Source: an uncultured Verrucomicrobiota bacterium
GTDB lineage: Bacteria > Verrucomicrobiota > Kiritimatiellia > JAAZAB01
DNA: 64,000 nucleotides
Assembly: GCA_964617825.1 (NCBI GenBank)
Contig: CAZTWL010000004.1
Coordinates: 71,546 to 135,545, forward strand
Direction of reading: 5' to 3'
The position numbers and the translations under genes are program-made. Position 1 is the first letter of the stretch; each line of letters starts with the position of its first letter. The notes below the pieces were generated by a model. It made no database searches, had not been told where the DNA came from, and saw only the letters and a list, made by a program, of their open reading frames with translations. Below, piece by piece: positions 40,995-59,241 of this stretch.

Positions 40995-41038
40995 ATAAAC
41001 TTTCTAGTTTGGCAGGAATCATTCTTGTATTTCAACCA

Positions 41039-41848
41039 TTATTTCTGAAGCACTCCCTTTTCATTCCGCCGGCATTGGCGGAAAACCCAGTCGACCAAGC
41101 CGGGCTCCTTGTAAGCGTAATTCCAGGCATCGTGTTCAACCTTTGCATATTCCGTATAGCGCGGGCTGCCCCCGGCTTTTTTAACGGCGGCAATCATGTT
41201 CCGGCTGCAGATTACTTTGACCACCGGATCCAGGGCGCCGTGAAAAGCCCAGATCGGAATATCCTTGATAATGGCGGCCTTGGTTTCATCGCCACCGCCA
41301 CATACCGGGACAGCAGCGGCAAACATGTCTGGGCGCCGGCAAATGACATCCCAGACTGCAAATCCGCCCATGGATTGGCCATGGACATAGATCCGATCCC
41401 GGTCAATTGGATAATCCGATAGGATTTTGTCGACAATTTCAAGGGCCATTCGCATTTCAGGCGTAATGGCCGGCTGATTATGCTCCGTTTTGCCCCAATC
41501 CGTGTCCACCCAGCGTCGTCCCGCCGGACACTGTGGCGCAACAACAAAACAAGGATGGCCGGCTTGAATCTTTGGGTCCGCGAACACTTTGCCATAGCCA
41601 GCCGTAACCTGCGCCAAATTATCGGCCCCAACACTTCCGGCGCCATGAAAGGCTACAACCAACGGATACTTTTTACCTTCCTGAATGTTGGTGGGGCAAA
41701 ACAAGCGGTATGGCAGCGTTCCGCCGTTTTTGGCTCCGTGGTCAAACGGTTTAAAACCATAGTCTTCATTGGCGGCCTGAACTACGGATAAGAGCGACAA
41801 TAATGTCAAACCGCTCAGGCCGGCCACCGTTATCCTTGACTCATTCAT
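41039..41848 (-). CDS. secreted alpha/beta-hydrolase carbohydrate esterase (PHB-depolymerase/feruloyl esterase-like)
   Basis: The start is at MNESRIT with a signal peptide. It has the GQSMGG nucleophile elbow. It is ~70% identical to the C-terminal ~270 aa of the 1216-aa protein at 47416..51066. Confidence 0.7.
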   Translation of the reverse strand: MNESRITVAGLSGLTLLSLLSVVQAANEDYGFKPFDHGAKNGGTLPYRLFCPTNIQEGKKYPLVVAFHGAGSVGADNLAQVTAGYGKVFADPKIQAGHPCFVVAPQCPAGRRWVDTDWGKTEHNQPAITPEMRMALEIVDKILSDYPIDRDRIYVHGQSMGGFAVWDVICRRPDMFAAAVPVCGGGDETKAAIIKDIPIWAFHGALDPVVKVICSRNMIAAVKKAGGSPRYTEYAKVEHDAWNYAYKEPGLVDWVFRQCRRNEKGVLQK

Positions 41849-42005
41849 ATCGTTTCCTGTTTTGGTTTTTATCCAACACGGATTTGACGCTAGGCTGAAA
41901 TCATCACCACGGTGGTTGATAAATCGGAAAAAGCAATTCCAAACAAGCGCCATCCGCGGCATACTTCTTTATGTATAACTGTTTCCAATATGCAAAAACA
42001 CAAAA

Positions 42006-43340: not shown

Positions 43341-43437
43341 GCTATCGCATGCCTCCCATCTTGTTGCCCATTTTTGCCGGTTTGTGTTTCTGCTCGTTCC
43401 GATCTTAGTCCGAACGTCCGTGGCGCCACTTTCCTGT

Positions 43438-44673
43438 CTAACGAAAACGGAACATTGTGCCCGACTGAATAAATACTTCGTAAGCGCCCATGTCCACCGT
43501 CCCATGCAAAATACGCGCATGTCCATCCAAGTCAACCGCATTTGTCATCCAGTCTTGATTCAAGCCCGAATTATAACACGGTGAATACCGATTGAAGCGA
43601 TAGTCGCCGGTCGCAAAACTTGCAAACCCGGGATTATCGGTCTTGTTGCCGGTGCGCATGGAATTAAAATATGTGCCCGAGGGCATTGAACATGAATACA
43701 TGCAGACGTCCCTGGTCGCCGACCATCCGCCCAAATTACCAGGGGCATTGTTATAAACAATGCAATTAACGACCGCATTGGTTGACGATTTGCCGAAAGC
43801 GACGCCGCCGCTGGCCCAGGGGCTGTAATTACTCACGATGGTACAGTTAATAACCAGAGTATTGGTGCTGATGATTGCTATGCCGCCACCATGAACTGAT
43901 CCACCATCCACCCTGTTATATCTAATCAGGCAATTTTCAATCGTAGCTACAGCATCGCCGGTCGAATATCCGACACGAATGCCGCCTCCATGCGAAGTCA
44001 GCGCTTGATTGTTTTCGATTATGCAGTTCTTGATTAAGGCATAGGTTAGGCTATCGCTTATATTTATACCTCCCCCCATGCCAGTCGTGCTTATATTGTT
44101 CCTGATCGCACAGTTCGCAACAATGCAGGTTCCCAGATAGGTTTTCTTGGGCCACGTATCCACCAAGATCGCAATGCCCCCTCCGATTTGGGCCTTGCAA
44201 TCGGTAATAAGACAATTAGTGACCGTTCCACCTGACATTACTATTCCCCCGCCATTAAGCGAATAGCCATTTGTGATCGTCAGGCCATCAAGAACACTGT
44301 CGTTGTGCTTCAGATAGAAGTTATACAAGGCATTCCCGTTAAAAATCGCGGCGCCCCTTCCGTTGAGACTCCGGATAACGACGTCATTCGTAATGGCAAT
44401 GACATTATTCGTGAGTCCATAAACCCCATTAGTCACCCAGACGATTTTGGGCGTATCGCCATCGTTCATGGCGACCTTCACCACATCGATGACGCTGGTC
44501 CCAGCCGTCGCCCAGTTGGTGTAGGGAGGTTGCGCCCCGGCATTGCTCGGAACCAGATAATGGGTGGCCGCATCGGCATTCGCCACCCCGAAAATGATCG
44601 CCACCATCGCTGCCGCACGCACCACATATTTAACGTTCAATCGTCTGGTTGTCGTTTTATATTGCTGAATCAT
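43438..44673 (-). CDS. secreted right-handed parallel beta-helix repeat protein (pectate-lyase fold / CASH-type)
   Basis: A signal peptide is followed by many NxGGGI/NCxI-type beta-helix rungs (GGGIAI, NCIIENN, NCLIRYN, NCTIVSN). Confidence 0.6.
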   Translation of the reverse strand: MIQQYKTTTRRLNVKYVVRAAAMVAIIFGVANADAATHYLVPSNAGAQPPYTNWATAGTSVIDVVKVAMNDGDTPKIVWVTNGVYGLTNNVIAITNDVVIRSLNGRGAAIFNGNALYNFYLKHNDSVLDGLTITNGYSLNGGGIVMSGGTVTNCLITDCKAQIGGGIAILVDTWPKKTYLGTCIVANCAIRNNISTTGMGGGINISDSLTYALIKNCIIENNQALTSHGGGIRVGYSTGDAVATIENCLIRYNRVDGGSVHGGGIAIISTNTLVINCTIVSNYSPWASGGVAFGKSSTNAVVNCIVYNNAPGNLGGWSATRDVCMYSCSMPSGTYFNSMRTGNKTDNPGFASFATGDYRFNRYSPCYNSGLNQDWMTNAVDLDGHARILHGTVDMGAYEVFIQSGTMFRFR

Positions 44674-44841
44674 TTTTACCTTTTCTGGGTTTAGAGTGAA
44701 ACACCCTAAACATATAGTGGTTATGACGATGTCGGATGCGGATACAAGTTTAAGCCGCCATAATGAAAATAAATTGCCAACCCCTGTCATCCCACAAGGT
44801 CAGACAAATGAGTTAAGACACGGTTAATATCGAAGGAAAAC

Positions 44842-45102
44842 GTGCCTTCCTCGAAAAATCAGTTCCGGTTTTTTGGATCAACATATATGCAGCACACCTC
44901 CTTCCAACACATGGCTGTCCCACAGGAATTAGCCGAATCCTGGCAAACAAGCCGGTTCCGGGGTGCCGCAGATGCGCCCAGGAATACAGATGCGCCAGGT
45001 AACGCAGGATCAAATGGACCAACAGGCCCATCCACTTCTGCCAGCGCACAGCATTGGCGTTATGCCCCAGAAAATCGGCCAGTTGCAAGGTTTGTTTAAT
45101 CT
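44842..45102 (+). other. small + strand ORF (85 aa) inside the repeat region, ending immediately before a perfect 8-bp hairpin and T-rich tract
   Basis: ORF 44842..45099. The hairpin is CACTGGCG-tcccacagggg-CGCCAGTG at 45104..45130, followed by TTCCTGTTTT. Coding status is unproven. Confidence 0.2.
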
Positions 45103-45138
45103 CCACTGGCGTCCCACAGGGGCGCCAGTGTTCCTGTT

Positions 45139-47397
45139 TTAATACTTCTCAGCGAGGGTAATTTCCAAAACTTTGATGTCGCCCGGGCCAACATCAATTG
45201 AGAATGAATTTTTGTTTTTGTCCCAGGCCATATCCGTGCCTTCCCGCAGTTCCTGCACCATGATCGGGGTCAGCGACCGCATGTCGACCGTAACCTTGGC
45301 GGTTTGGGCAACATCCGCCTTTTCCGGCGTGCGCGTGAATTTAGTTACGCCCTTGTTGTTGATCAGATACACCCACCAGCCATCCGACACTTTGTTCAGC
45401 CCATATTCGATATCGCCCTTTACCTCAACCGGCAGGACGTCTTTCACAATCTGCCGCATCAGAATTTGAACAAGAGGATGTTCCCTGGATTTCATGGCCT
45501 TGATGTAAGTATCGTCGTTGTTATCGCAAAAGCTTTTGCGCGGAACCATATAATCGACGGCGGTCAAAACCACCCGCCCCCGGCCATACGCATGCGCGCT
45601 TGCAAGAATCCCGCCCTTGCTGTCACGCCACAGCGGTTCGGCGCCTTTTAGTTCAAGCATTTCATAATCGTATGGCTCGGGCAGCGTTATGGCATCGCTT
45701 CCGCCAACAACATTGACTTTTCCTTCTGTCGCGCACATTTTCCCCGTCCGCCTGACCCCGATAAAATCATCCGGCAGATTGTCGTTAACCTGCCGGGTAT
45801 TGAGGACCAGCGTTCCGCCTTTCTTTACATATTCCTTCAATCGTTTCGCCAGCGCCTGGTCGATATTGAATCCACCCAGCATGATCGCCACCTTGTAATT
45901 CATCAGCGTTTTCAAGGCCACGGGCCCGCTAGGCGGACGGGGCGTAACCACGTCATAGATGTCCCCATATGGGCTGTTTGCCAGGCAGCCTTCCTGGCCT
46001 TGCTTTAAATTCTGCGCCATCGGCACCAAGGTATACATAAAGGCATCGATCATACTGTCCGGACGCTCCATGGGAAAATATGACCAGGGACGTCCGCCAA
46101 ATTGCGGATAACCCTGATTAAATGGAATCATGATCGCCACCGGCGCGTAGCTTGAGCCGCGGTCGGGAAACCATTGGGTGAATGCGTACCATTCCTTCAT
46201 CGCCTCGCCGTACGGGGAAAGCTCGACGTCGCCGCGCGCATCCTGGTTTTTGAATTTCCAATAGGTATATGGCCAGCCTTCGTGTTGGACAATACTGGCC
46301 CCGGCTAAATACGCCAAATACATATTTCGTCGATTAAGCGAAATCGACGGCCCGCAGGTCGGGCCACGGACATGTTCGTCTCCGATACCAAAGGCAGTGG
46401 TATTGGTTGTCAAACAATACGGAAATGCATTGTCATCCCATTTGCCATCCTCGGTAAAGCCGTTATAACAGACGGCAATATACCATTCCCACGGTTTGCC
46501 ATATTGCCGTGCGGCCCCGCGCGCAAACGACATGGCAACTTGGTACCGGTAGGGACCGGTGCTCGACGTTTCCAGAATCACCATCCCGGCGCCCCATTCC
46601 AGCGGGTAATGATCCCAGCACCAGCCACTGTGCAGGAAGATCATTTTTGCCGGATCGTTAAAATAGTAGCGCTGCGCGGCTTTGAAACAGGCATATGATC
46701 CGGCCAACGCCTGATCGCGGCCTTTTCTCGCGTTCACAAGAATGTTGGTTGCCTGCGTTATCATTGCTTCCGAATAATTTTGCGCTCGCAGCCGCTTGAC
46801 ATATTCAAGCACGTTCGTCTGGTGAAGAGCTCCAATATAATCGCTGTCATATTCATCGCCGGCCGCAAATCCCAGAAAATTGGGATGCTCTTTTTTCCAT
46901 TTTTTATATTCTTTATCGTCTACCTTGAAATCATCCATGCACCTGAAATGGGGACGGCTGCCGCCTCCGCCGAGAATAAACGGCACCTTGGGATCGAATT
47001 CCGCTTCATTCAATCGGGCGGCGCTGATCGCAAGACTATTATTCGTGTCCGGTACCAACAGATTCTTGCGCGAATACCAGCGCGCCGCCTCACGCAGCAT
47101 CGGTTCGCTTGAATGTACCATTCTGCCCTGCGAGGCTAGCGCTTTCTTCGTAGGCAACGGCTTGGGATCGGATTTGTTCCGCCAATCCCCGGGAAGCAGA
47201 TTCCAGAACCTGCGTCCCATTATTTGCTGCGGAATTTGATCCGCAGTCGAGTCATAATCCTGCCGGGCGACAATACGGGCGGCATCACTTGAACCGTTCG
47301 TTCCCTCCACGCCGGCGGCGGCCCCAAATGCCGTTAGACAGAGCAGACAGACCATCGGCAGCGTTACGCGGCATATTTTACGCATATTGATTTTCAT
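45139..47397 (-). CDS. putative glycoside hydrolase of an unassigned family, paralog 1 of 3; central domain resembles a beta-galactosidase-trimerisation/ThuA-like fold
   Basis: ~750 aa with a signal peptide. Conserved blocks shared with 51277..53553 and 61441..63687 include IVARQDYD, EHPNFLGF.AG.E.DSD, FLHSGWCWDHYPLEWG, ARQY.K.WSWYIAVCYNG, FPYCLTTN, GPTCG.S.SL.RR.MYL.YL.GAS, SYFPMERPDSMIDAF.YTLVP, CLANSPYGDIYDV and YKVA..LGGF.ID..LAKRL.EYVKKGGTLV.N.RQ. Confidence 0.55.
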   Translation of the reverse strand: MKINMRKICRVTLPMVCLLCLTAFGAAAGVEGTNGSSDAARIVARQDYDSTADQIPQQIMGRRFWNLLPGDWRNKSDPKPLPTKKALASQGRMVHSSEPMLREAARWYSRKNLLVPDTNNSLAISAARLNEAEFDPKVPFILGGGGSRPHFRCMDDFKVDDKEYKKWKKEHPNFLGFAAGDEYDSDYIGALHQTNVLEYVKRLRAQNYSEAMITQATNILVNARKGRDQALAGSYACFKAAQRYYFNDPAKMIFLHSGWCWDHYPLEWGAGMVILETSSTGPYRYQVAMSFARGAARQYGKPWEWYIAVCYNGFTEDGKWDDNAFPYCLTTNTTAFGIGDEHVRGPTCGPSISLNRRNMYLAYLAGASIVQHEGWPYTYWKFKNQDARGDVELSPYGEAMKEWYAFTQWFPDRGSSYAPVAIMIPFNQGYPQFGGRPWSYFPMERPDSMIDAFMYTLVPMAQNLKQGQEGCLANSPYGDIYDVVTPRPPSGPVALKTLMNYKVAIMLGGFNIDQALAKRLKEYVKKGGTLVLNTRQVNDNLPDDFIGVRRTGKMCATEGKVNVVGGSDAITLPEPYDYEMLELKGAEPLWRDSKGGILASAHAYGRGRVVLTAVDYMVPRKSFCDNNDDTYIKAMKSREHPLVQILMRQIVKDVLPVEVKGDIEYGLNKVSDGWWVYLINNKGVTKFTRTPEKADVAQTAKVTVDMRSLTPIMVQELREGTDMAWDKNKNSFSIDVGPGDIKVLEITLAEKY

Positions 47398-47415
47398 ACT
47401 TATCACTTTCTTGTT

Positions 47416-50400
47416 TTATTTTCTTTTTTGCCCGAAAATCCATTCCGTCAATCCCGGTTCCTTGTACGCATGATTCCAGGCATCGTGCTTGACATTTTCC
47501 CATTCCGTATAGCGCGGGCTGCCGCCGGCTTTTTTAATGGCGGCGATCATATTTCGGCTGTTTATGACGGGAACCGAGGTATCCAGCGCGCCGTGGAAAG
47601 CCCAGATCGGTATATCCTTGATGCTGGCCGCCCTGGTGACATCGCCGCCGCCGCATAGCGGCACTGCCGCTGCAAACATGTCCGGCCTCCGGCATATAAT
47701 GTCAAAAACAGCGTACCCGCCCAAGGATTGGCCGTTGACATAAATCCGGGCGTTGTCAATCGGATATTCCGCGACAATCCGGTCAATGATTTCAAGCGTC
47801 ATTTTCATTTCGCGGGTTATGGCCGGCTGAATATGTTCTGTTTTGCCACAGTCCGTGTCCACCCATCGGTGATTCTCAGGAATTTGAGGTGCCACGATAA
47901 AACAGGGATATTTTGATTGAATCTCCCGGTCAGCATACACTTTTGCATAGTTAAGCTGCGCCAGGTTGTCGTTGCCCGCACTCCCGGAGCCATGAAAATA
48001 GACTATCAGCGGATATTTTTCGCCTTCCCTGATATTTTCTGGAATAAACAACCGGCAAGGCAGTGTTCCGTTCGTTCCGGATTCATGGATAAACACCCTA
48101 AAACCATTGACAATGTTGGTACCGTCTGGCCGGGCACGGGATTGGCCGGATGCTTTTACCGGCACGGCGCGGACGTCGTCAATCTCGGCCCGGTCCGTGA
48201 CCCCGAGCGCCAGCGTCGCAACAGGCGGATAGTCAACCGGGAGGGTATGGATAAATTCATAGCGCTTCCATTGAGATGCCGGCGTTAAATTCAAGTCTGC
48301 CTCGCCTAATTTGGTTACCTTGAATAGTTTCGCGGTGTTGTAATGATAAAGGGACACTTCTATCTTGCCCAGGCCGCGGGCGGCAAATGAAATTTCAAAC
48401 GTGTCGCCGGGCTTCATCGCCACTTTCATACTGTTTAAAATCACGCCGCCATCGATCTGGAGGGAATTTTTGCCCGCGTACGCCCCCTCGGACAGTATCG
48501 TGGCCATTCGGCCCCCCGCATAGTGCAATTTCCAGTCTTTCGGCACTATCGGCGGCTGGTTACCGAACTTCCATGTTCCGGATTTATGCTTCTTGAGCAA
48601 GGCTTCGTTGTCCAGCGTGATCGTTTCCTCAAACCCTCCGTTGGCGATAATGGGACCGGCAAAGGTTACCCCGCGAAAACTGCTGATATCATGGAACGAG
48701 CCGTCCATCCAGGAACTGATCTCGGCTTTGCCGGCATTCCTGCTCCGCCCAACATTCATCAGCCAGCGACCACCGTCGGCAATATTTCCGCCCAGCGACT
48801 TGGCCGAAACTTTCATCTCCACGGTCCATTGGTTCGTTCCGGCCAGGGCCGCCACCTGGGCATCGGTATTGAAATTAACCGCGCCAATCGTCGGCGCGCC
48901 GGGCTTGCATTCGGAATCGCGCAAGGCGCCGGCGAAATTGATTGCCATGTGGACGTAACGTTTGCCGTCCCCCGCCGGATCGATAAACAGCTCCACCGTG
49001 TTGCCGTCCCAGATTTTATTATCATCGCGCTCCCTGGTTTTGGCCATGAGCTTGCCCGGCAGGGGCTCGTCCATCTCCAGACCGGCATAAAGATTTTCGT
49101 TGTCGTAGAGCAGGCGCACGGAGGTCTGCGCTTCGGCCACCGCGCCATTTGACCGGATGAAACCGGTCGCGCGTTCGCATAAGCCCCAGTCGACTTCGTC
49201 CAGTTTACCATCAAGCGTGACAGGGGCGGTGATCCGTGCCGCGTGCACGTCGTTGGCCTGCCGTTTGATGTATTGCTCGCGCGCCTTCAGCCATCCTTCC
49301 TTGAAAATCTCCTTGTCCTTCGCGATGCGCTTCAGGACAACCGGGTCTCCCGTGGCGGCCTTCTCCGCCTCGTCCAGCATGTCGGAGAGCGCCTTGATCG
49401 CGGATGGCGACTCAACGCTCTTGCCGATGGCGCCGTAGCTGGAGCCGTAGATAAAGTCCCCGGGGGTTTCGTCCCAGAGCTTGCGCGCCAGGGCCTGGTA
49501 GCGCCCCATGGCTCCGGAGGCCGGGCCGTAATATTTATCGTTCAAATCCTTCAGCAGCGCGTCCACATCCGCGTTGATGTTCCAGGCCAGCTTGGCCTGG
49601 ACGTAATGCATAGCCATGTTTGCCCGCCAGAAATCCCAGTTGCGCGGGCTGTCGTACAATCCGTTGCTGTGCCGGTAATTACCGTCCGGAGGTATGGTCC
49701 CTATACCCCACGCGGTGTGTCCCAGGCGGTGCGAGTAACGCATATCGCCGGCCACGATATATTCGAGCGGGGCGCAGAGAATCCCGGCCGTTCTTTCGTT
49801 TTGCTCACCCGCATAGATGACGTAATAGGTAGCGAGCTGCATCGAGCTAACAACCTTGGCCCATCCTTCAAGCATGTCGCGGAACCACTGGTTGGCTGGA
49901 CAGTTAGTGTCACCCAGCGAGTGCCGGTAACAGCGGTCGTGGTCAAAGAACACGAACTTGAGCCGGGGGTCAAAGCGGACGCCGGTCGGCGGGATACGGA
50001 AATTCTGGTAGGCCCTCCCGTACAAATCCGCATCCGGAAACTCGCTAAAGACACGATTGGCAATTTCGTTCTCGAAAACGGCAAAGCGCGTGGCCACTGC
50101 ACCTTTCCTGCGCTCATCCGGCGGGTCCAACACCAGACATTTCTCGCACTGGCACCAGCCGCCGCAATCGTTGTTGGCTATCTGGAACTGGCCGTCCGGG
50201 AACTTTCTGAAAAAATCAAGGACGTACTTTGTCGCAAGGTCTATCACTTCCGGGTTCGAGGTGCAGGGCTGGAAACGCACTCTCTTGTCCTGTGATTGCC
50301 GGCAACGCTTGCCATCGATCAATGCAAAATATTCCGGATGCGCTTCAAACAGGCTGTCGGGCACCATCTTCAGCATTACATTATCGCTGCCGCCATGCAC

Positions 50401-51066
50401 AGTGTAACGTCCGCGTTTCTCAACTTCTTCGCGCCCACTCCTCATCGAGCAAGGCTTCACCCTGTTGCGCGCACACCAGTCCCAGGAATTTGTCGTCTTG
50501 GCAGTGGTAGCCGTATTGCAGTAACCCATACTACGCTGCTTGAACGACGGATTCTGCCGGTTGTTTATCCGCCTGATTTTCAGCGTGGGAGTCTTGGGGC
50601 AGTATTCGCCATCCTCGCCGGGAAAGAACCAGCGCATCCCGACGTGCTCCTCAAGGAACGCATAGACGCCATACAGGACCCCGAGCGGCGTCTTGCCGGC
50701 AATCAGCAGCCCGCGCTCATCCGACCTGATAAGGACGCCTTGATCCGAAAGCGACTGCACATCTTTCAGTGCCCCTAGCTTGGCGATTGCCGGACACGTT
50801 TCCGGCGTTCCGAGCCAGATGCTGTATTTGTCCGCCTGCGGCGCATTGCTCTGCGCAACCCGGGCTCCGGTCACCTTGCCGAGGAAAAGGCACAATTCCT
50901 CAGCCGCGTGTTTCTCCACCACCGAGGCTTTGTCGCCGATTACCACCGCGCAGCGGGAATTGCCTTTGTCAACAAGCGCGATGGAGCCGGCAGGCAAATC
51001 CCTGTTACGTGCGCAGGCACAGACCAGCAAGAGGCATAAAACAAGCATGGTGATCCTAGATGTCAT
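47416..51066 (-). CDS. multidomain carbohydrate-active protein: DUF4838-like putative GH domain + CBM9-like + CBM4_9-like + C-terminal alpha/beta-hydrolase esterase
   Basis: 1216 aa with a signal peptide (MTSRITMLVLCLLLVCACA). The N-terminal ~560 aa resemble DUF4838 (LGVLYGVYAFLEEHVGMRWFFPGE). A CBM9-like block follows (ITAPVTLDGKLDEVDW...VHMAINFAGALRDSE), then a CBM4_9-like beta-sandwich (IIANGGFEE...LQIDGG). The last ~270 aa are an esterase with GQSLGG, homologous to 41039..41848. Confidence 0.6.
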   Translation of the reverse strand: MTSRITMLVLCLLLVCACARNRDLPAGSIALVDKGNSRCAVVIGDKASVVEKHAAEELCLFLGKVTGARVAQSNAPQADKYSIWLGTPETCPAIAKLGALKDVQSLSDQGVLIRSDERGLLIAGKTPLGVLYGVYAFLEEHVGMRWFFPGEDGEYCPKTPTLKIRRINNRQNPSFKQRSMGYCNTATTAKTTNSWDWCARNRVKPCSMRSGREEVEKRGRYTVHGGSDNVMLKMVPDSLFEAHPEYFALIDGKRCRQSQDKRVRFQPCTSNPEVIDLATKYVLDFFRKFPDGQFQIANNDCGGWCQCEKCLVLDPPDERRKGAVATRFAVFENEIANRVFSEFPDADLYGRAYQNFRIPPTGVRFDPRLKFVFFDHDRCYRHSLGDTNCPANQWFRDMLEGWAKVVSSMQLATYYVIYAGEQNERTAGILCAPLEYIVAGDMRYSHRLGHTAWGIGTIPPDGNYRHSNGLYDSPRNWDFWRANMAMHYVQAKLAWNINADVDALLKDLNDKYYGPASGAMGRYQALARKLWDETPGDFIYGSSYGAIGKSVESPSAIKALSDMLDEAEKAATGDPVVLKRIAKDKEIFKEGWLKAREQYIKRQANDVHAARITAPVTLDGKLDEVDWGLCERATGFIRSNGAVAEAQTSVRLLYDNENLYAGLEMDEPLPGKLMAKTRERDDNKIWDGNTVELFIDPAGDGKRYVHMAINFAGALRDSECKPGAPTIGAVNFNTDAQVAALAGTNQWTVEMKVSAKSLGGNIADGGRWLMNVGRSRNAGKAEISSWMDGSFHDISSFRGVTFAGPIIANGGFEETITLDNEALLKKHKSGTWKFGNQPPIVPKDWKLHYAGGRMATILSEGAYAGKNSLQIDGGVILNSMKVAMKPGDTFEISFAARGLGKIEVSLYHYNTAKLFKVTKLGEADLNLTPASQWKRYEFIHTLPVDYPPVATLALGVTDRAEIDDVRAVPVKASGQSRARPDGTNIVNGFRVFIHESGTNGTLPCRLFIPENIREGEKYPLIVYFHGSGSAGNDNLAQLNYAKVYADREIQSKYPCFIVAPQIPENHRWVDTDCGKTEHIQPAITREMKMTLEIIDRIVAEYPIDNARIYVNGQSLGGYAVFDIICRRPDMFAAAVPLCGGGDVTRAASIKDIPIWAFHGALDTSVPVINSRNMIAAIKKAGGSPRYTEWENVKHDAWNHAYKEPGLTEWIFGQKRK

Positions 51067-51270
51067 GTTTTTCCTTTATCATCCCACAGGATGCTCTGGC
51101 CGAGGGCTGTGGGCCGTAGACCGTAGGAAAACACCAAGAAAAGAGATGATTATGAAAAGCCCTTCAAAATCATCAGTTCCGGTTTTTCCAACTTGGATTT
51201 GTTCGATTCCGACTTACAGCCTTCGGCCTACAGTCTACAGTCCGAGGTGCCCCTGTGGGACGCCAGTGTT
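51067..51270. repeat. intergenic repeat element copy B (~200 nt), homologous to 7381..7570
   Basis: It shows the same three-block structure. A CCCACAGG...(17 nt)...CTGTGGG palindrome lies ~45 nt upstream of the 47416..51066 start codon. Confidence 0.6.
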
Positions 51271-51276
51271 GCTGAG

Positions 51277-53553
51277 TCATTCTTTAATTTCCACTACTTT
51301 GATGTCACCCGGACCGACAGTGAGGGACAAGGACTTCCCGACACGATCCCAGCTAACATCTTGCTCTTCCCTCAATTCGCGAACTTGTTTCGCGGCCAAA
51401 TCCCGCAGGCGAATGGTTACTTGGGCAGACGCGGCCGGATCCAGCTTCTCGGCCGTGCGCGTAAACTTGGTTACGCCCTTGTTATTGATCAGATAGACCC
51501 ACCAACCGCCTTCGACCCGGTTAACTCCATACTCAATCTCCCCCACGACTTCAACTGGCAGCGCTTCCCGTACAATCTGGCGCATAAGCAATTGGATCAG
51601 CGGCAGATTGCGGGCTTTCATGGCTCTGATGAACGTATCGTCGTTGTTATCGCAAATACTCTTGCGCGGCACCATGTAATCGGCGGTGGTCAGGACGACC
51701 CGTCCGCGGCCATAATCGTTCACGCTGGCCAGGACACCACCCTGTCCGTCCAACCACAAAGGCTGCGCGCCACGCAAATCAACCTGCTCATAATCGTAGG
51801 GCTCGGTGAGCGTCACGGACGACTTTCCATCCGCCGTCCGGATCTCGCCTTCCGTCCCGCAGACTTTGCCCGACCGCTGTGCGCCGATGAACTCCGCCGG
51901 TAGATTGGCATTAACCTGCCTTATATTAATGACCAGCGTTCCGCCTTTTTTAACATATTCCCTGAGGCGCCTGGCCAGCGCCTTGTCAATATCGAAGCCC
52001 CCGAGCATGACCGCCACTTTGTAATTCATAAGCGTTTTCAACGCCACAGGTCCGCTTGGCGGATTCGGCAGGATGACATCATAGATGTCTCCGTACGGAC
52101 TATTGGCAAGGCATCCTTCCTGTCCCTGCTTCAGATATTGCATCAGTGGCACCAGGGTATACGTGAACGCGTCGATCATGCTATCCGGCCGCTCCATCGG
52201 GAAATAGGACCAGGGACGTCCGCCCCATTGCGGGGCGCCCTGGTTGAACGGAATCATCAACGCTACCGGCGTATAGGCCACACCACGTGCCGGGTGCCGG
52301 CGCGCGAACGCATAGCTGTCCTTAATCGCTGCGCCATAAGGGGACAGCTCCCATTCTTCCGCGTGCTTTTCCTTGCTCCCCTTGACAAACTGGCAATAGG
52401 CATAAGGCCAGGTCTCATTCTCGACGAAACTTGCCCCGCTCAAGTAAGCCAGATACATATCCCGCCGGTTTAGTGAAACCGACATGCCGCAGGTCGGGCC
52501 ACGGACATGGCCGCTGGCGGCAATCGGAGATTCATTGGTGGTTAGGCAGTAAGGAAAGGCATTGTCGTCCCATTTTCCATCCTCGGTGAAACCGTTATAA
52601 CAGACCGCAATATACCAGCTCCAGAATTTGTGGTATTGGCGCGCCGCTCCACGGGAAAAAAACATGCCCAACTGATGACGGTATGACCCCGTACCGCTGG
52701 TTTCCAAAGTAATGCCGCCGGCCCCCCACTCCATGGGATAATGGTCCCAAGTCCAGGCCGAGTGCAAAAAGAGCAGCTTATCGCAATCGTTAAAAAAGTA
52801 CCCGCGCCAGGCATCATGGCATTTCTTCAACCCCGCCACCGCTTCCCAACGCCCTTTTTGACTCGCCTCTATCACTTGGCTGGCGGACTGGACGCAGGCC
52901 TCAATATCCTTCTCGGCAAAACCTTTGCGCCTTAAATCATTCCGCAACCAATCGGCACCCTGGTACCCTTCGAAATCAAGTCCGGCTTTCTTGCTTTTCG
53001 CCAATGCGCCAACAAAGTCGCTGTCGAATTCGTCGCCGGCCATGAACCCGACAAAATTCGGGTATTGTTCTTTCCAATGCTTATAGGTGGAATAATTTGG
53101 GCGAAATGGCAGCATGTACGCCAGGGGTGGACGACCTCCAGCACTTAACATAAAAGGCACGTTCGTCTCCGGCTTGATGCACGAACCTTTCAACTTGAGA
53201 TTGGTCATATCGACGACCAGAGGATTATTGGTTGTGCTCAGGGACGCGCCATATCGCACTGCCGATTCGAACACCATCGGCTCAGAGCTGATATATTTTG
53301 CCATTTTGTATTCATTCGCCCAGTTGGTCCATATTTTAACACTCATCAGATTCCAAAAATCGCGTCCCGTAAAGACCGGCAAGGTCCAGTCCGGGGAAAT
53401 GTCAAAATCCGTCCGGGCCACAATTCGATTATCGTTCGTTCGGCATATTCCTTCGTCAACCTTGCAAGGATTGAACGCACACCCCCCGACCAGGATCCAT
53501 ATCGCTGCCGGCAACAAAATACTGCAGACTATTCCACGCAGTTTATTTGACAT
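51277..53553 (-). CDS. putative glycoside hydrolase of an unassigned family, paralog 2 of 3 (lipoprotein-type signal LVGGC)
   Basis: 758 aa, colinear with paralog 1 (about 55-60% identity over the conserved core). Confidence 0.55.
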   Translation of the reverse strand: MSNKLRGIVCSILLPAAIWILVGGCAFNPCKVDEGICRTNDNRIVARTDFDISPDWTLPVFTGRDFWNLMSVKIWTNWANEYKMAKYISSEPMVFESAVRYGASLSTTNNPLVVDMTNLKLKGSCIKPETNVPFMLSAGGRPPLAYMLPFRPNYSTYKHWKEQYPNFVGFMAGDEFDSDFVGALAKSKKAGLDFEGYQGADWLRNDLRRKGFAEKDIEACVQSASQVIEASQKGRWEAVAGLKKCHDAWRGYFFNDCDKLLFLHSAWTWDHYPMEWGAGGITLETSGTGSYRHQLGMFFSRGAARQYHKFWSWYIAVCYNGFTEDGKWDDNAFPYCLTTNESPIAASGHVRGPTCGMSVSLNRRDMYLAYLSGASFVENETWPYAYCQFVKGSKEKHAEEWELSPYGAAIKDSYAFARRHPARGVAYTPVALMIPFNQGAPQWGGRPWSYFPMERPDSMIDAFTYTLVPLMQYLKQGQEGCLANSPYGDIYDVILPNPPSGPVALKTLMNYKVAVMLGGFDIDKALARRLREYVKKGGTLVINIRQVNANLPAEFIGAQRSGKVCGTEGEIRTADGKSSVTLTEPYDYEQVDLRGAQPLWLDGQGGVLASVNDYGRGRVVLTTADYMVPRKSICDNNDDTFIRAMKARNLPLIQLLMRQIVREALPVEVVGEIEYGVNRVEGGWWVYLINNKGVTKFTRTAEKLDPAASAQVTIRLRDLAAKQVRELREEQDVSWDRVGKSLSLTVGPGDIKVVEIKE

Positions 53554-53641
53554 ATACTAACATTTCACTTGGATTAACATCATGATGTGCCTGCTTGTAC
53601 GCCACTTTGCCTCTGCCTTGGAGAATATGGCCGCGGCAAAA

Positions 53642-56155
53642 TCATTCCAGGCATACCTCGTAGTATATCGCTCCGCGTCCAATGCGCAGGGAGATCCAGT
53701 CGTTTTGCCAGGTAGGCTTCATTTTTTGAATCCGCTTTCCTGTCGGATCCAAGGCAAAGACTTTGCCACAGCGATGGATCGCGCCGGTATTGATCGCTAT
53801 CCGCGCTTTGACCGGCTCGATGATCACCGGCGCCGCTCCCTTTTCATCATAGCGCAGTTCCCAATGCGTGCCTTGGTCGGCAAACAACTGACCTCGATTC
53901 TCGGCCTTGCCGACAGTGGTGACCAGGAGATGCCTGGAAACGGAAATCGGCTTGCCGTCCAAGGAACTGACGGTAATGGAGCAATATTCCGTTTCGCACT
54001 CCACAATCAGGTTCGCCAGCGCTATTTTGCCGGCTTGTTTTAGAAAACCCACCGCCGACTGCACTCGCGGGCTATTGATGGTAAACACACCTTGCTTGAA
54101 ATCGCGCGTTAACTCGCCGGTATCGCTTGTCAGACGGCTGCCGAGGGAGCTTAGTTTGTATCGGGCGCCAAATATTCCCCAATACTTGCCGGCGCTCAGG
54201 AACAGGCGCGCCAGATTCTCGCTGGTGATTTCCATATCGGGCGCCACGCAATTACGCCCGTCAATGAATCCGGCGCATATATTCCGCTTGGAATCCACGC
54301 CGACTGCCAGGGCATCGCGCGGGATGCTTGACAACCGGATTCCTCGTTTGAGCTCCCTGACAATTGTTTTATTTGGCCACATCACCTCCCGGAAACTTAA
54401 AGCGCATTCACTTGCGCCAATGAGTTTGAGCTTCGGGTATAATTTACGGATAACATTGCCGGAGCTGTTCTTTAGAAGCATCAGGTGCTTGTTTCTGTAT
54501 CCCTTGGGCAAATAACTTAGATCGCTTAATCCGGAAGGGATGATTACATCGGCGAGATTATCAACCGCCTGATCGAAAAAGCGTCCTTGAATTCCCGATA
54601 TGAACGGCAGTGATTTATATGGCGATATTTGATCGATCGCGCCCCATACCCGATTAGTGAAAGCATCTTTGCGCGAATACTCGATTTCCAGCATGCTCTT
54701 GGCCGCCTTGACGTCGTGACGGTGAAACAACAAGGCGGCCGCCGGCATTAATCCCATTATTGCCGGATCCGACGCGATTTTGAAATGCCGGATATCGTTG
54801 CATTTCTTTCTGGGCCATAAATCAAGCGGGATGATCGGTCCTTCATAGTTATGAATGATAAATCCGTCCCAGTCTTGAAGGCAGGCATAGGCCGCCGTAG
54901 AAAGAACGCCCTCGCAGCGCCATTCATTTGGCCATACGTAATTCCACTCGGAAACGACCAGAGGCTTGCCCGCAAGCCTGGTTGGCGCAATGGTATGCAC
55001 CAGCGTTTCGCGCCCGTTTTCAAAAGGGCTGACGTTAACCATAGGTTGATTGTGAAAGTGGAGCGCTCCATTTCCATAATGCGGATGGTCCCAATAATGA
55101 TGGTCGCCGCTAAAATCCATCATGGTATATGACTTCAGGTTGGCAGGCGAGAAAACGTCGTCATTCGTGCCCGTGATCGGTATTTTAACACCCAAGGTGC
55201 GCAGGTGTTTGACCATGTCTTGATAGTATGCATTTTGGCATTCGTAGGCAAAAGCGCTGAATTCATCCAGCCGGGCTCCGGCATGCTTATTGTCACTGCA
55301 TGTCACCACCGGCGGAAATTCCACCGTCCCTTTCCTTGGATCTTCACCATCGGCCAGGGATTGGGGTTCTTGGCGGCTGGACCAGCTTTTTACGAGCTTT
55401 TCCCGAAAGCCATATTTTTCAACCAGCCATTTATTCCACCGACGCTTCAATTCACTATAATATGGCTCGGGAACGCCCGACTGCCATATCGACCCCCAGG
55501 CAGCCTTGGAATCTTTATGCTCCCAAAAGGTCATGAAAATTGAATTTTCGTTGGTGATTTCCAAGAGTGCGATGCCGGGATCATCAACGTAGCGCTTTCC
55601 AACGTAAGGGTTGTAATGGGTCAGCAGGTCTTGCGCATATTGTTTCTGGAGCATAATCATGCGCGGATCGAAAGTGGACAAGTATTTAGCTCCGCGCCCG
55701 AGCTTTTCGCTTGCGCGCACGCCATCGCCCGGCTTGAATTTTCGATAATCAAGCAGGTCCAGGTAAATATAAATGCCCCTTTGCTCGAGAACGTGAATGA
55801 AATAATCCACCTTGTCCAATGCGGCCTTTATCAAGGACTGGGTGTGATCGGGTGCAGGATCAATAATATACGTGTCGATATCATGAAAGCGGACCAGATT
55901 GATACCGTATTTGGCAAGCCTTGCGGCAATGAGCCGCGCCTCGCTCTTGGAAGGGAGCGCATTGAATCTGGCGACGTTAATGCCCCAAAAACGAATTCTT
56001 CTACCATTCTCAAAGCAGAAATGTCCGTTTTCCGATTGTAAAAACCCGTGCTTGCCGGCCGGGGCATCGAGAAGGAAGCTCACATTGATGGCCGTATCGC
56101 TTTTGTCCTCGCGCGGCAATATGCATTCGACCCACTTTGATTTTGATATTTTCAT
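53642..56155 (-). CDS. clan GH-A glycoside hydrolase, GH5-like (possibly a mannanase or cellulase relative)
   Basis: 837 aa. The TIM-barrel N-terminal half has INLVRFH and LLEITNENS (an NE-type acid/base motif). There is no signal peptide. The C-terminal ~400 aa have unknown accessory domains. Confidence 0.45.
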   Translation of the reverse strand: MKISKSKWVECILPREDKSDTAINVSFLLDAPAGKHGFLQSENGHFCFENGRRIRFWGINVARFNALPSKSEARLIAARLAKYGINLVRFHDIDTYIIDPAPDHTQSLIKAALDKVDYFIHVLEQRGIYIYLDLLDYRKFKPGDGVRASEKLGRGAKYLSTFDPRMIMLQKQYAQDLLTHYNPYVGKRYVDDPGIALLEITNENSIFMTFWEHKDSKAAWGSIWQSGVPEPYYSELKRRWNKWLVEKYGFREKLVKSWSSRQEPQSLADGEDPRKGTVEFPPVVTCSDNKHAGARLDEFSAFAYECQNAYYQDMVKHLRTLGVKIPITGTNDDVFSPANLKSYTMMDFSGDHHYWDHPHYGNGALHFHNQPMVNVSPFENGRETLVHTIAPTRLAGKPLVVSEWNYVWPNEWRCEGVLSTAAYACLQDWDGFIIHNYEGPIIPLDLWPRKKCNDIRHFKIASDPAIMGLMPAAALLFHRHDVKAAKSMLEIEYSRKDAFTNRVWGAIDQISPYKSLPFISGIQGRFFDQAVDNLADVIIPSGLSDLSYLPKGYRNKHLMLLKNSSGNVIRKLYPKLKLIGASECALSFREVMWPNKTIVRELKRGIRLSSIPRDALAVGVDSKRNICAGFIDGRNCVAPDMEITSENLARLFLSAGKYWGIFGARYKLSSLGSRLTSDTGELTRDFKQGVFTINSPRVQSAVGFLKQAGKIALANLIVECETEYCSITVSSLDGKPISVSRHLLVTTVGKAENRGQLFADQGTHWELRYDEKGAAPVIIEPVKARIAINTGAIHRCGKVFALDPTGKRIQKMKPTWQNDWISLRIGRGAIYYEVCLE

Positions 56156-56261
56156 GTTAATGCAAGGTAATATTTGCCAAGCACGTCACACTAGTCACCA
56201 ATTGCACCACATTTTGATAAAAAACAACACGAATATTGCACGTACGATCACCACAATCTGT

Positions 56262-59186: not shown

Positions 59187-59241
59187 GTTTTTCCTTTATT
59201 AACAACCACTTGTTGTCCGAATAAATAAGGAGTTCGATGTT

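What the first reader, a model, noticed from the sequence alone, without database searches (positions are those of the whole stretch)
47416..48230. Esterase domain exists both as a stand-alone gene and as a C-terminal fusion on one of two otherwise near-identical giants
The last ~270 aa of the 1216-aa protein (YPLIVYFHGSGSAGNDNLAQ...GQSLGGYAVFDIICRRPDMFAAAVPLCGGGD...IPIWAFHGALD...KKAGGSPRYTEW) are ~70% identical to the secreted esterase encoded at 41039..41848. The paralog 56262..59186 ends exactly where this domain begins. This is a clean domain gain or loss event. It physically couples an esterase (feruloyl or acetyl-xylan-esterase-like) to the DUF4838-like/CBM scaffold, which supports a shared substrate for the two unknown modules.
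Basis: seen in the sequence. Interest (0 to 1): 0.55.

Follow-up and report, generated by a model that had tools for sequence, protein, structure and literature searches.

The report
Esterase module fused onto glycosidase-like lipoprotein
One of two paralogous large sugar-degrading lipoproteins in an uncultured Lentisphaerota-like bacterium has picked up a copy of a nearby esterase gene as a C-terminal domain; the fusion is real, but it is an ordinary kind of event for carbohydrate-degrading enzymes.

Summary
Gene 47416..51066(-) encodes 1216 aa. Residues 988-1216 are 69% identical over the whole domain (E 8e-113) to the secreted esterase 41039..41848(-). The 974-aa paralog 56262..59186(-) stops 17 residues before that domain, and no esterase relic lies downstream of it.

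The interpretation needs correcting in four places.
- The giants are 70% identical, not near-identical. They are a gene-conversion mosaic, 42-96% by segment.
- The direction is gain. All 970-aa relatives lack the domain.
- The "DUF4838/CBM scaffold" is a glycoside-hydrolase-like enzyme. DUF4838 is the catalytic domain of GH163 and GH185, and the AF2 model resembles GH115/GH67/GH20.
- The esterase is EstA-like (T. maritima, PDB 3DOH). The Ser-Asp-His triad is intact and dN/dS is about 0.16. It is only distantly related to CE1 feruloyl esterases.

This esterase module is promiscuous. Elsewhere it is fused to GH78, GH106, apiosidase-like and beta-helix proteins. The pairing with DUF4838 is a singleton in the databases searched, and esterase genes do not recur next to DUF4838 genes. 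One distant relative independently carries a CE7 acetylesterase at the same position.

The most likely function is a bifunctional, lipid-anchored deacylase-glycosidase acting on an O-acylated glycan of unknown identity. Interest is modest.

The parts
47416..51066 (-). Fused gene, 1216 aa plus stop. It encodes a lipoprotein with an N-terminal GH67N/GH20b-like domain, a DUF4838 barrel, a helical region, a CBM9-like domain, a beta-sandwich, a linker and an EstA-like esterase.
   Evidence: ORF and translation. Pfam. Identical protein P0001 (1210 aa, start at M7) in an NCBI assembly contig of 156 kb.
51013..51066 (-). Signal peptide with a lipobox (LLLVCAC, Cys18).
   Evidence: Regex for the lipoprotein pattern matches both giants. 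The pattern itself was recalled from PROSITE PS51257.
50659..50994 (-). N-terminal alpha/beta domain of the GH67N/GH20b type (about aa 25-136).
   Evidence: PF03648, 34.4 bits against a cut-off of 24.3. The AF2 model is confident here.
49498..50625 (-). DUF4838 (PF16126) barrel, aa 148-523, the putative glycosidase catalytic domain. It contains an invariant Cys cluster: C268, C305, C307, C310, C379, H382, C389.
   Evidence: PF16126, 126.6 bits against a cut-off of 26.6. Invariant columns. Foldseek hits to GH115, GH67, GH20 and GH84.
48778..49212 (-). CBM9-like domain, aa 619-763.
   Evidence: PF06452, 25.4 bits against a cut-off of 23.4. Foldseek hit to 1i82, the CBM9 of T. maritima Xyn10A, TM(target) 0.75.
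48154..48654 (-). C-terminal beta-sandwich, about aa 805-971, with weak CBM4_9 similarity. It is the last module shared with the paralog.
   Evidence: PF02018, E 0.007, below the cut-off. All-beta in the AF2 model. Alignment to the paralog ends at aa 971.
48106..48153 (-). Junction linker, aa 972-987 (ASGQSRARPDGTNIVN). It has no homology to either parent and no signal-peptide relic in any frame.
47419..48105 (-). EstA-like alpha/beta-hydrolase esterase module, aa 988-1216. Ser1114 is at 47725..47727, Asp1162 at 47581..47583 and His1194 at 47485..47487.
   Evidence: 69% identical to the stand-alone esterase. 3DOH E 1e-51 with the triad aligned. 53 of 58 family-conserved columns kept. dN/dS about 0.16. 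GC3 0.57, against 0.72 for the rest of the gene.
56262..59186 (-). Unfused paralog, 974 aa. Same architecture as the fused gene up to the stop codon, including the lipobox.
41039..41848 (-). Stand-alone secreted EstA-like esterase, 269 aa, with a Sec signal peptide. It belongs to the lineage from which the fused module derives.
   Evidence: NJ tree. Positional ortholog P0122 in syntenic contig L085 (beta-helix, esterase, GH30).
39618..63687 (-). Enclosing co-directional CAZyme cluster. In transcription order: U750c, GDSL, GH30, giant, GH42-like, U750b, giant-esterase, U750a, beta-helix, GH10-like, esterase, GH30-like.

Best explanation
47416..51066(-) is a genuine in-frame fusion. It encodes a lipid-anchored, multi-modular carbohydrate-active enzyme with two catalytic modules.

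The ancestral ~970-aa protein is widespread in Lentisphaerota, Verrucomicrobiota, Armatimonadota, Omnitrophota and Planctomycetota. Its modules are:
- a lipobox signal peptide;
- a GH67N/GH20b-like domain;
- a DUF4838 barrel;
- a helical region;
- a CBM9;
- a beta-sandwich.

This gene duplicated. On one copy, a duplicate from the lineage of the neighbouring secreted EstA-like esterase gene was joined to the 3' end. The giant's stop codon and the esterase's signal peptide were both lost, leaving a 16-aa linker. Everything to this point is shown by the analyses.

The rest is inferred. The esterase module is a Ser1114-Asp1162-His1194 serine hydrolase. I propose that it removes O-acyl groups, most probably acetyl, from a decorated glycan. 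The CBM9 would hold that glycan, so that the DUF4838 glycosidase-like module and the other glycosidases of the cluster can cleave it. Tethering would keep the deacylase at the cell surface or in the periplasm, next to its partner, instead of releasing it.

The identity of the glycan is not established. The context gives mixed signals:
- GH10-like, GH30, CBM9 and a GH115/GH67-like fold hint at a hemicellulose such as acetylated glucuronoxylan.
- The beta-helix gene, and this esterase family's usual partners (rhamnosidases, apiosidase-like proteins, beta-helix proteins), hint at pectic or rhamnose-rich glycans.
For: The fusion is real in the sequence:
- It is one continuous ORF. The other two frames at the junction carry stop codons.
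- There is no room for a stop, ribosome-binding site, start codon and signal peptide within 17 residues, and no signal-peptide relic in any frame.

The direction is gain:
- Of the 120 best relatives listed out of 201 in 5.8 billion proteins, only the window's own protein carries this esterase.
- P0003 and P0004 end at the same position as the paralog.

Source of the module:
- The NJ tree gives (fused,(stand-alone,P0122)). The trio is monophyletic in 82% of bootstraps and SA+P0122 in 78%.
- P0122 is the positional ortholog of the stand-alone gene.
- GC3 of the module (0.572) equals that of the stand-alone esterase (0.572) and differs from the rest of the gene (0.716).

The module is under constraint:
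- dN 0.21, dS 1.32.
- 53 of 58 family-conserved positions are kept, including GxSxG, the HG motif, Asp and His.

The giant is a glycosidase-like enzyme:
- PF16126 is the catalytic domain of GH163 and GH185.
- The AF2 model has pLDDT 90.8. Foldseek top hits are GH115 (E 2e-22), GH67 (8e-15), GH20 and GH84, plus a CBM9.

Functional coupling is plausible:
- P0077 (MAG GCA_022709995.1) has the same giant architecture with a C-terminal CE7 AXE1 domain.
- EstA-like modules sit at the C-terminus of GH78, GH106 and apiosidase-like enzymes and beside beta-helix domains.
- GH-CE multicatalytic enzymes are well documented (PMC8417218; PMC7110780).

Localisation:
- Both giants have a lipobox, and the stand-alone esterase has a Sec signal peptide.
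Against: - No biochemical data exist for this DUF4838 subfamily or for this esterase clade. The natural substrate of EstA (3DOH) is itself unknown, which I state from memory of the literature.
- The fusion is a singleton from one assembly, probably a MAG. I could not inspect reads.
- The association is not conserved. An EstA-like gene lies near a DUF4838 gene in only 1 of 83 related loci. It is absent from the neighbourhoods of P0003, P0007, P0009 and P0014.
- The esterase module is fused to unrelated partners as well, including a kinase and an alkaline phosphatase. Fusion alone is therefore weak evidence for a shared substrate.
- The fused copy has unusual substitutions at otherwise near-invariant positions close to the nucleophile: M1115L, W1121F (W in 100% of the family), C1062I and Y1004C. 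These could mean altered or reduced activity.
- Catalytic residues of the DUF4838 module were not mapped.
- The characterised DUF4838 enzymes are beta-GlcNAc-ases, which does not obviously fit a xylan or pectin context.
- Published multicatalytic enzymes often show no measurable intramolecular synergy.
Confidence: 0.62

Rival explanations
1. The fusion is a sequencing or assembly artefact. In reality a ~971-aa giant is followed by a separate esterase gene, and an indel or base error removed the stop codon.
For: - The architecture is a singleton seen in one assembly.
- A TAA lies out of frame exactly at the junction (CCG GTA AAA reads as C CGG TAA AA). A 1-2-nt error could therefore create or remove a stop there.
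- GC3 changes at the seam.
Against: - Only 16-17 residues separate the two homology blocks.
- A separate secreted esterase gene would need a spacer, a ribosome-binding site, a start codon and a ~25-aa signal peptide. None of the three frames shows a hydrophobic leader or an ATG.
- The first in-frame Met of the esterase part lies deep inside the fold.
- The join is in frame across 229 conserved residues.
Confidence: 0.07
2. This is domain loss, not gain. The ancestor of both giants carried the esterase, and the paralog 56262..59186 lost it.
For: - The duplication is old. In the catalytic core the paralog is closer to P0003 than to the fused copy.
- Relatives are sampled only as fragments, so a lost-domain history cannot be excluded by direct observation.
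Against: - Every outgroup stops at the same position without an esterase: P0003, P0004 and the ~100 other ~970-aa proteins across five phyla.
- No esterase relic lies downstream of the paralog.
- The module's nearest relatives are the local stand-alone esterase clade.
- Loss would require several independent, precise deletions.
Confidence: 0.04
3. The appended esterase domain is catalytically dead or repurposed, for example as a binding or anchoring module. Alternatively it acts on a substrate unrelated to the glycosidase module, and the fusion is an opportunistic way to export or anchor it.
For: - There are deviations at near-invariant positions next to the nucleophile: M1115L, W1121F, C1062I and Y1004C.
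- The fused copy sits on a long branch.
- The esterase module is promiscuous and is fused even to a kinase and a phosphatase.
- There is no conserved gene-neighbourhood link with DUF4838.
Against: - The triad and the oxyanion HG motif are intact, and 53 of 58 conserved columns are kept.
- dN/dS is about 0.16.
- A convergent CE7 fusion occurs at the same position in P0077.
- Most multi-domain partners of this esterase module are glycan-active proteins.
Confidence: 0.2
4. The esterase module was acquired by horizontal transfer from another organism, not by duplication of the resident esterase lineage.
For: - The fused copy is slightly more similar to P0122, from another metagenome (74%), than to the resident stand-alone esterase (69%).
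- 21% of bootstraps group the fused copy with P0122.
Against: - P0122 is the syntenic ortholog of the resident gene (76-81% identical).
- The three sequences form one clade (82%).
- The majority topology places the fused copy as sister to both, on a longer branch. That is what an old in-lineage duplication with acceleration would give.
- GC3 is identical to that of the resident esterase.
Confidence: 0.07

Closest known systems
Thermotoga maritima esterase EstA (TM0033; PDB 3DOH/3DOI; Levisson et al. 2009, cited in PMC10189120)
   Same: - The alpha/beta-hydrolase domain aligns end to end (query 4-234, chain 140-380, E 1.3e-51).
- The GxSxG serine, the Asp and the His are aligned.
- Shared motifs include PL(V/I)VFxHG, APQ(C)P, CGGGD and IPIWxFH.
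- EstA also carries its esterase as the C-terminal part of a two-domain protein.
   Different: - EstA's partner is an N-terminal Ig-like domain, not a glycosidase.
- It comes from a different phylum and is a thermophilic enzyme.
- Its natural substrate is not established.
- Identity was not computed and looks moderate.
Multicatalytic GH-CE enzymes such as C. thermocellum XynZ (CE1 feruloyl esterase + GH10; PDB 1JJF), B. eggerthii BeCE15A-Rex8A and BeGH43/FAE, and BoCE6-CE1 (PMC8417218, PMC7110780)
   Same: - One polypeptide combines a deacylating esterase with a glycosidase and CBMs.
- The genes sit in a glycan-utilisation cluster.
- The linkers are short.
- The architectures are rare and lineage-restricted.
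   Different: - The families differ. The glycosidase-like part here is a DUF4838 protein, which I have not seen reported in such fusions.
- The esterase is EstA-like. It is only remotely similar to CE1 (1JJF E 7e-5).
- No activity data exist for this protein.
GH163 (BT1035) and GH185 (Sp_0475), the two characterised DUF4838 families (PMC10570127)
   Same: - The PF16126 domain is present, well above threshold.
- The barrel is GH20-like with an N-terminal alpha/beta domain.
   Different: - The window proteins belong to a different, ~970-aa subfamily with a CBM9 and an extra beta-sandwich.
- They carry an invariant Cys cluster.
- They gave no sequence hit in the PDB.
- They were not compared directly with BT1035 or Sp_0475.
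- A HexNAc-ase activity is not implied by the gene context.
P0077 (1367 aa, MAG GCA_022709995.1, locus L084): DUF4838 giant with a C-terminal AXE1/CE7 domain
   Same: - The N-terminal architecture is the same (GH67N/GH20b, DUF4838, CBM9).
- A deacetylase is appended at the C-terminus.
   Different: - It is only 28% identical to the window giant.
- The esterase belongs to another family (CE7 AXE1, PF05448), so this is an independent fusion event.
EstA-like modules fused to other CAZymes: P0406 (GH78), P0497 (GH106), P0506 (apiosidase-like, with dockerin), P0389 and P0432 (beta-helix)
   Same: - The esterase family is the same (41-48% identity to the query).
- The module is often C-terminal to a glycosidase.
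   Different: - The partners are different.
- None of the 150 best representatives carries the DUF4838 giant module.

Membership tests
EstA-like alpha/beta-hydrolase esterases (3DOH type; annotated 'predicted peptidase' or 'PHB depolymerase family esterase') | Full-length sequence similarity of the catalytic domain | tested here: met
   phmmer against the PDB gives E 1.3e-51 over query 4-234. There are 1302 homologues at E<=1e-20 and 19,699 representatives at E<=1e-3.
EstA-like alpha/beta-hydrolase esterases (3DOH type; annotated 'predicted peptidase' or 'PHB depolymerase family esterase') | Ser-Asp-His triad, GxSxG elbow and HG oxyanion motif | tested here: met
   G1112-Q-S1114-L-G1116, D1162, H1194 and H1025-G1026 all fall in columns that are 100% conserved in 119 family members. 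They align to the corresponding residues of 3DOH. The triad numbering of EstA is from memory.
EstA-like alpha/beta-hydrolase esterases (3DOH type; annotated 'predicted peptidase' or 'PHB depolymerase family esterase') | Carboxylesterase activity | not testable with these tools
   This needs an enzyme assay.
CAZy CE1 feruloyl / acetyl-xylan esterases | Clear sequence relationship to characterised CE1 domains such as XynZ (1JJF) | tested here: inconclusive
   1JJF scores E 7e-5 over only the N-terminal 140 residues. Other feruloyl esterases score 6e-4 to 3e-3. Pfam BD-FAE gives 29.0 bits against a cut-off of 26.8. The protein belongs to the same superfamily, but family membership is not shown.
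Pfam PF16126 (DUF4838) | Score above the Pfam gathering threshold | tested here: met
   126.6 bits for the fused protein and 155.3 bits for the paralog, against a cut-off of 26.6.
GH163 / GH185 glycoside hydrolases | Family-level sequence similarity to BT1035 or Sp_0475, and conservation of the residues mutated in Sp_0475 (Q174, H227, D309, Y436) | not tested
Only the shared Pfam domain is established.
GH163 / GH185 glycoside hydrolases | GH20-like (beta/alpha)8 barrel preceded by an alpha/beta N-domain | tested here: met
   The AF2 model has pLDDT 90.8 and pTM 0.85. Foldseek hits GH20 lacto-N-biosidase at 3e-13, GH84 at 7e-13, GH67 at 8e-15 and GH115 at 2e-22.
GH115 / GH67 alpha-glucuronidases | Sequence-level family membership | tested here: not met
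   There is no PDB sequence hit at E<=0.01 for aa 1-972. Foldseek identities are 10-12% and TM scores 0.37-0.50. The resemblance is in fold only.
CBM9 | Pfam PF06452 above threshold and a CBM9 fold | tested here: met
   25.4 bits against a cut-off of 23.4, which is marginal. Foldseek hit to 1i82, TM(target) 0.75, E 1.6e-10.
Multicatalytic CAZymes (GH + CE on one chain) | Two distinct catalytic modules in one ORF, both apparently intact | tested here: inconclusive
   A single ORF is shown and the esterase module is intact. The DUF4838 module is conserved and under purifying selection, but its catalytic residues were not identified.

The most novel reading that the evidence does not exclude
The ~970-aa DUF4838 'giants' may be a new glycoside hydrolase family or subfamily. 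They have a GH115/GH67-like fold, an invariant Cys/His cluster and a CBM9. Under this reading their substrates are O-acylated glycans. Two independent captures of deacetylases point to acyl groups as the specific obstacle to their action: an EstA-like module here and a CE7 module in P0077. The fused enzyme would then be a natural, self-contained deacetylase-glycosidase that reveals the substrate class of an uncharacterised enzyme family widespread in PVC bacteria and Armatimonadota.
Probability: 0.25. Interest if true: 0.5.

Novelty: new variant of a known kind. Interest (0 to 1): 0.3.

Why it matters
If the fusion is functional, it gives a concrete handle on an uncharacterised DUF4838 subfamily. 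That subfamily is abundant and multi-copy in Lentisphaerota, Verrucomicrobiota, Armatimonadota and related uncultured glycan degraders. The experiment it suggests is to test acylated glycans, comparing the full-length enzyme with the esterase-dead mutant.

It is also a well-resolved small case study of CAZyme evolution. It shows an old tandem duplication, partial homogenisation by gene conversion, divergence of the catalytic core, and capture of a neighbouring accessory enzyme with loss of its signal peptide.

It does not change any general picture, because modular shuffling of esterases onto glycosidases is well known.

Tried and rejected
**Organism**
- I looked for the source organism by exact-protein look-up (P0001, P0002, P0243).
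- The window's genome is not among the GTDB representatives.
- The closest named relative is an uncultured Lentisphaerales MAG carrying P0003.

**Remnants at the junction**
- I searched for remnants of the giant's 3' UTR or the esterase's 5' region in the linker by short-word blastn. Only chance 7-9-mers turned up.
- A possible 4-nt deletion scenario (GTGCCGGT[GCGA]TAAA to VPVK) is too speculative to claim.

**Hidden esterase after the paralog**
- None was found.

**Other copies of the fusion**
- The full-length search of 5.8 billion proteins found none.
- The esterase-domain search found none. It did not return the window's own fused protein either, so its word filter can miss long proteins.
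- Because of that gap I repeated the search exhaustively and screened the best 150 with an HMM of the giant. There were none.
- A junction peptide searched against JGI metagenome contigs found none.

**Conserved neighbourhood linkage**
- I tested for esterase and DUF4838 genes lying together in 83 loci and in three annotated metagenome contigs. Linkage is not conserved.

**Substrate**
- I considered a firm 'xylan' assignment from GH10, GH30, CBM9 and the GH115-like fold, and rejected it as unproven.
- The GH30 genes score closer to endo-beta-1,6-glucanase models than to XynC, both far below the cut-off.
- The esterase family's other partners point to rhamnose-, apiose- or pectin-type glycans.

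**Full-length model**
- A full-length model showing the relative orientation of the two active sites could not be made.
Full report
**1. Observation**

The minus-strand ORF 47416..51066 is uninterrupted and encodes 1216 aa.

- BLASTP against the ORF at 41039..41962(-) gives 160/231 identities (69%), 83% positives and E 8e-113. It covers aa 988-1216 of the large protein and aa 69-299 of the esterase ORF.
- The similarity therefore spans the entire alpha/beta-hydrolase domain. This disposes of the first refutation criterion, that similarity might be confined to the nucleophile elbow.
- The esterase gene proper starts at M39 of that ORF (nt 41848) with a Sec-type leader, MNESRITVAGLSGLTLLSLLSVVQA.
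- The 974-aa protein from 56262..59186(-) aligns with aa 1-971 of the large protein at 70% identity. It ends (..AVPVR*) where the large protein continues (..AVPVK-ASGQSRARPDGTNIVN-GFRVF..).
- A 16-17-residue linker therefore joins the two homology blocks.
- tblastn with both esterase sequences against all six frames of the window, with E up to 10, finds only the two known copies.
- The 106 bp after the paralog's stop lead directly into the next gene. The second refutation criterion, a hidden esterase behind a sequencing error, is not met either.

**2. Is the fusion itself an artefact?**

- At the junction the other two frames contain stops.
- No frame shows a hydrophobic leader or a start codon.
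- Seventeen residues cannot hold a stop, a spacer, a ribosome-binding site and a signal peptide.
- The first in-frame Met of the esterase part lies deep inside the fold.
- The same protein, called from M7, is in an NCBI assembly on a 156-kb contig (P0001). That is the same assembly, so it is not independent confirmation.
- I rate an artefact at about 7%.

**3. What the modules are**

Pfam finds the following in the fused protein:
- Glyco_hydro_67N (aa 51-136);
- DUF4838 (aa 148-523, 126.6 bits);
- CBM9 (aa 619-763, marginal);
- a weak CBM4_9-like region (aa 854-944);
- several overlapping alpha/beta-hydrolase families for aa ~1000-1200.

The paralog has the same set minus the hydrolase.

DUF4838 is not an unknown scaffold.
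- It is the catalytic domain of GH163 (BT1035, an endo-beta-GlcNAc-ase on complex N-glycans) and of GH185 (Sp_0475, a 6-sulfo-GlcNAc-ase). Both are distantly related to GH20 (PMC10570127).
- An AF2 model of aa 21-972, built on 73 homologues, has pLDDT 90.8 and pTM 0.85.
- Foldseek against the PDB ranks five-domain GH115 alpha-glucuronidases first (4zmh, E 2e-22).
- Next come GH67 alpha-glucuronidase (8e-15), GH20 lacto-N-biosidase, GH84 and GH138.
- The CBM9 of T. maritima Xyn10A scores TM(target) 0.75.
- There is no sequence-level PDB hit, so the resemblance to these families is in fold only.

Both giants carry a lipobox (Cys18).

The esterase module is closest to T. maritima EstA.
- 3DOH scores E 1.3e-51 with the Ser/Asp/His aligned.
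- LC-Est1C (3WYD) scores 1e-22.
- CE1 feruloyl esterase XynZ scores only 7e-5.
- Against 119 family members, the fused module keeps 53 of 58 columns that are at least 90% conserved. These include G-x-S1114-x-G, H1025-G1026, D1162 and H1194.
- It deviates at Y1004C, R1030A, C1062I, M1115L and W1121F. The stand-alone copy keeps 57 of 58.
- dN/dS between the two copies is about 0.16 (dN 0.21, dS 1.32). For the giants it is about 0.23.

**4. Evolutionary history**

- In a search of 5.8 billion proteins, the 120 best of 201 relatives of the large protein are almost all ~950-1000 aa and lack an esterase. Only the window's own protein has it.
- P0003 (975 aa) and P0004 (983 aa) end at the same position as the unfused paralog. 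The event is therefore a gain.

The giants are not simply recent duplicates.
- dS is 0.5-0.6 in codons 1-200 and 500-800, but 1.3 to saturated in codons 200-500 and 900-966.
- In 50-residue windows the two window paralogs are 80-96% identical at aa 1-150 and 550-800, where P0003 is only 27-76% identical to either.
- In most windows of the catalytic core (aa 250-450) the unfused paralog is closer to P0003 (64-78%) than to the fused copy (48-63%).
- The simplest reading is an old duplication that predates the split from the P0003 lineage, followed by gene conversion of the flanking modules. P0003 is 97% identical to a gene in an uncultured Lentisphaerales MAG, L022.
- The catalytic cores have diverged, which suggests different specificities.

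The esterase tree agrees with an old event.
- NJ gives (fused,(stand-alone,P0122)), with 78% bootstrap for the inner pair and 82% for the trio. The fused copy sits on a longer branch.
- P0122 lies in a syntenic contig (beta-helix, esterase, GH30) with 62-81% amino-acid identity to the window genes.
- GC3 of the module (0.572) equals that of the stand-alone esterase (0.572) and contrasts with 0.716 in the rest of the gene.

**5. How general is the coupling?**

It is not general.
- In 83 loci around relatives of the giant (1.18 Mb), an EstA-like gene occurs once, 5.5 kb away (L053).
- Annotated neighbourhoods of P0003, P0007, P0009 and P0014 contain no esterase, and their glycosidase content varies widely.
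- A junction peptide found nothing in JGI metagenome contigs.

The esterase module itself is promiscuous.
- An exhaustive phmmer search of 1.84 billion representatives gives 19,699 hits.
- 95 of the best 150 are longer than 350 aa, and many carry 2-8 tandem esterase copies.
- Nine of them scanned with Pfam are fused to GH78, GH106, an apiosidase-like domain with dockerin, beta-helix domains (twice), GDSL with F5/8-type C, Laminin_G with dockerin, a protein kinase and an alkaline phosphatase.
- None of the 150 contains the giant module.

Two observations still favour a functional link.
- P0077, a 28%-identical giant from another MAG, carries a CE7 AXE1 acetylesterase at the same C-terminal position. 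This is an independent, convergent fusion.
- Most partners of the EstA-like module are glycan-active.

**6. Context**

The gene sits in a co-directional cluster, 39618..63687(-). In transcription order the cluster is:
- U750c;
- GDSL hydrolase;
- GH30;
- giant;
- GH42-like;
- U750b;
- giant-esterase;
- U750a;
- beta-helix;
- GH10-like;
- esterase;
- GH30-like.

Notes on individual members:
- GH10 membership is supported by xylanase structures (7d88, E 2e-26).
- The GH30 genes score nearer an endo-beta-1,6-glucanase model than XynC, both far below the cut-off.
- In Lentisphaerae bacterium ADurb.Bin242, a GH10-like gene directly follows a 43%-identical giant (L004).

The substrate cannot be named. 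The hints split between hemicellulose (GH10, GH30, CBM9, GH115/GH67-like fold) and pectic or rhamnose-rich glycans (the beta-helix gene and the esterase family's usual partners).

**7. Mechanism proposed**

- Shown: the protein is a lipid-anchored chain with a glycosidase-like DUF4838 module, a CBM9, a beta-sandwich and an intact serine-esterase module. It was created by capture of a copy from the neighbouring esterase lineage, with loss of that copy's signal peptide.
- Inferred: the esterase removes O-acyl (probably acetyl) decorations that block the glycosidase. Tethering keeps it beside its partner and on the cell.

Confidence in the anatomy and history is about 0.85. Confidence in the deacylase-glycosidase cooperation is about 0.5.

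Published multicatalytic enzymes show that such cooperation is common but not universal (PMC8417218).

**8. Comparison and novelty**

- GH-CE multicatalytic enzymes are a well-known kind.
- Each module here belongs to a known superfamily.
- The specific pairing (DUF4838 giant plus EstA-like esterase) was found only in the window's own protein in every collection searched.
- I class it as a new variant of a known kind, of modest interest (0.3).
- Its main value is as a clue for substrate discovery in an uncharacterised, widespread DUF4838 subfamily.

Noticed in passing
45139..47406(-), 51277..53553(-), 61441..63687(-): Three ~750-aa paralogs (56-60% identical) have no Pfam, NCBIfam or PDB sequence hit. 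There are 141 homologues, all annotated 'hypothetical', mostly from PVC bacteria and Armatimonadota, with at least 7 further copies on another 86-kb NCBI contig. The AF2 model (pLDDT 91.1) matches three-domain clan GH-A enzymes: GH35 beta-1,2-glucosyltransferase 7vkw (E 1e-20), GH42 and GH164. E185, E279 and E376 are invariant. This is probably an unclassified glycoside hydrolase family.
   Followed up: partly
47416..51066(-) versus 56262..59186(-): The two giants are a mosaic. Segments aa 1-150 and 550-800 are 80-96% identical with dS about 0.5. The catalytic core (aa 200-450) is 42-63% identical with saturated dS, and there the unfused copy is mostly closer to the outgroup P0003 (clearly so in aa 250-450). 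This indicates gene conversion of the flanks after an old duplication, with the catalytic cores kept divergent.
   Followed up: yes
fused protein aa 268-389 (window about 49900..50265, minus strand): C268, C305-x-C307-x-x-C310, C379, H382 and C389 are invariant or nearly invariant in 73 DUF4838 giants (motif NNDxxGWCQCExC ... RCYRHSL..C). They may form a metal-binding or disulfide cluster inside the catalytic domain. I did not see this mentioned in the GH185 paper: a search for 'zinc' and 'cysteine' gave 0 hits.
   Followed up: no
53642..56155(-): This 837-aa protein has no signal peptide. It has only a sub-threshold GH42 Pfam hit (20.9 bits against a cut-off of 21), no NCBIfam hit and no PDB sequence hit. 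It is another uncharacterised putative glycosidase in the cluster.
   Followed up: no
P0362-P0511 (database proteins, not in the window): The EstA-like esterase module occurs in very large proteins with 2-8 tandem esterase copies (for example P0376, 1719 aa, 8 stretches; P0375, 2660 aa). It is also fused to GH78, GH106, apiosidase-like, beta-helix, GDSL, kinase and alkaline phosphatase domains.
   Followed up: partly
P0091 (1674 aa) and P0077 (1367 aa, L084 6622..10725): Other relatives of the giant have captured different catalytic modules at the C-terminus. P0091 carries a GH78 alpha-L-rhamnosidase and P0077 carries a CE7 AXE1 acetylesterase.
   Followed up: partly
42006..43541(-) and 43438..44790(-); L085: The GH10-like ORF overlaps the end of the beta-helix gene by about 100 nt, so its true start is probably further downstream. 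The GH10-like gene is absent between the beta-helix and esterase genes in the syntenic metagenome contig L085. It was therefore either inserted in the window genome or lost there.
   Followed up: partly
The word-indexed homologue search with the esterase domain alone did not return the window's own fused protein (P0001). The filter can therefore miss long multi-domain proteins, and the all-stand-alone result is biased. The exhaustive search corrected this.
   Followed up: yes
24972..35299(+): A housekeeping block (mreB, mreC, PBP2, rodA, RNase G, an LptD-like gene) lies just upstream of the CAZyme cluster. LptD indicates a diderm envelope, consistent with lipoprotein and periplasmic localisation of the giants.
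   Followed up: no
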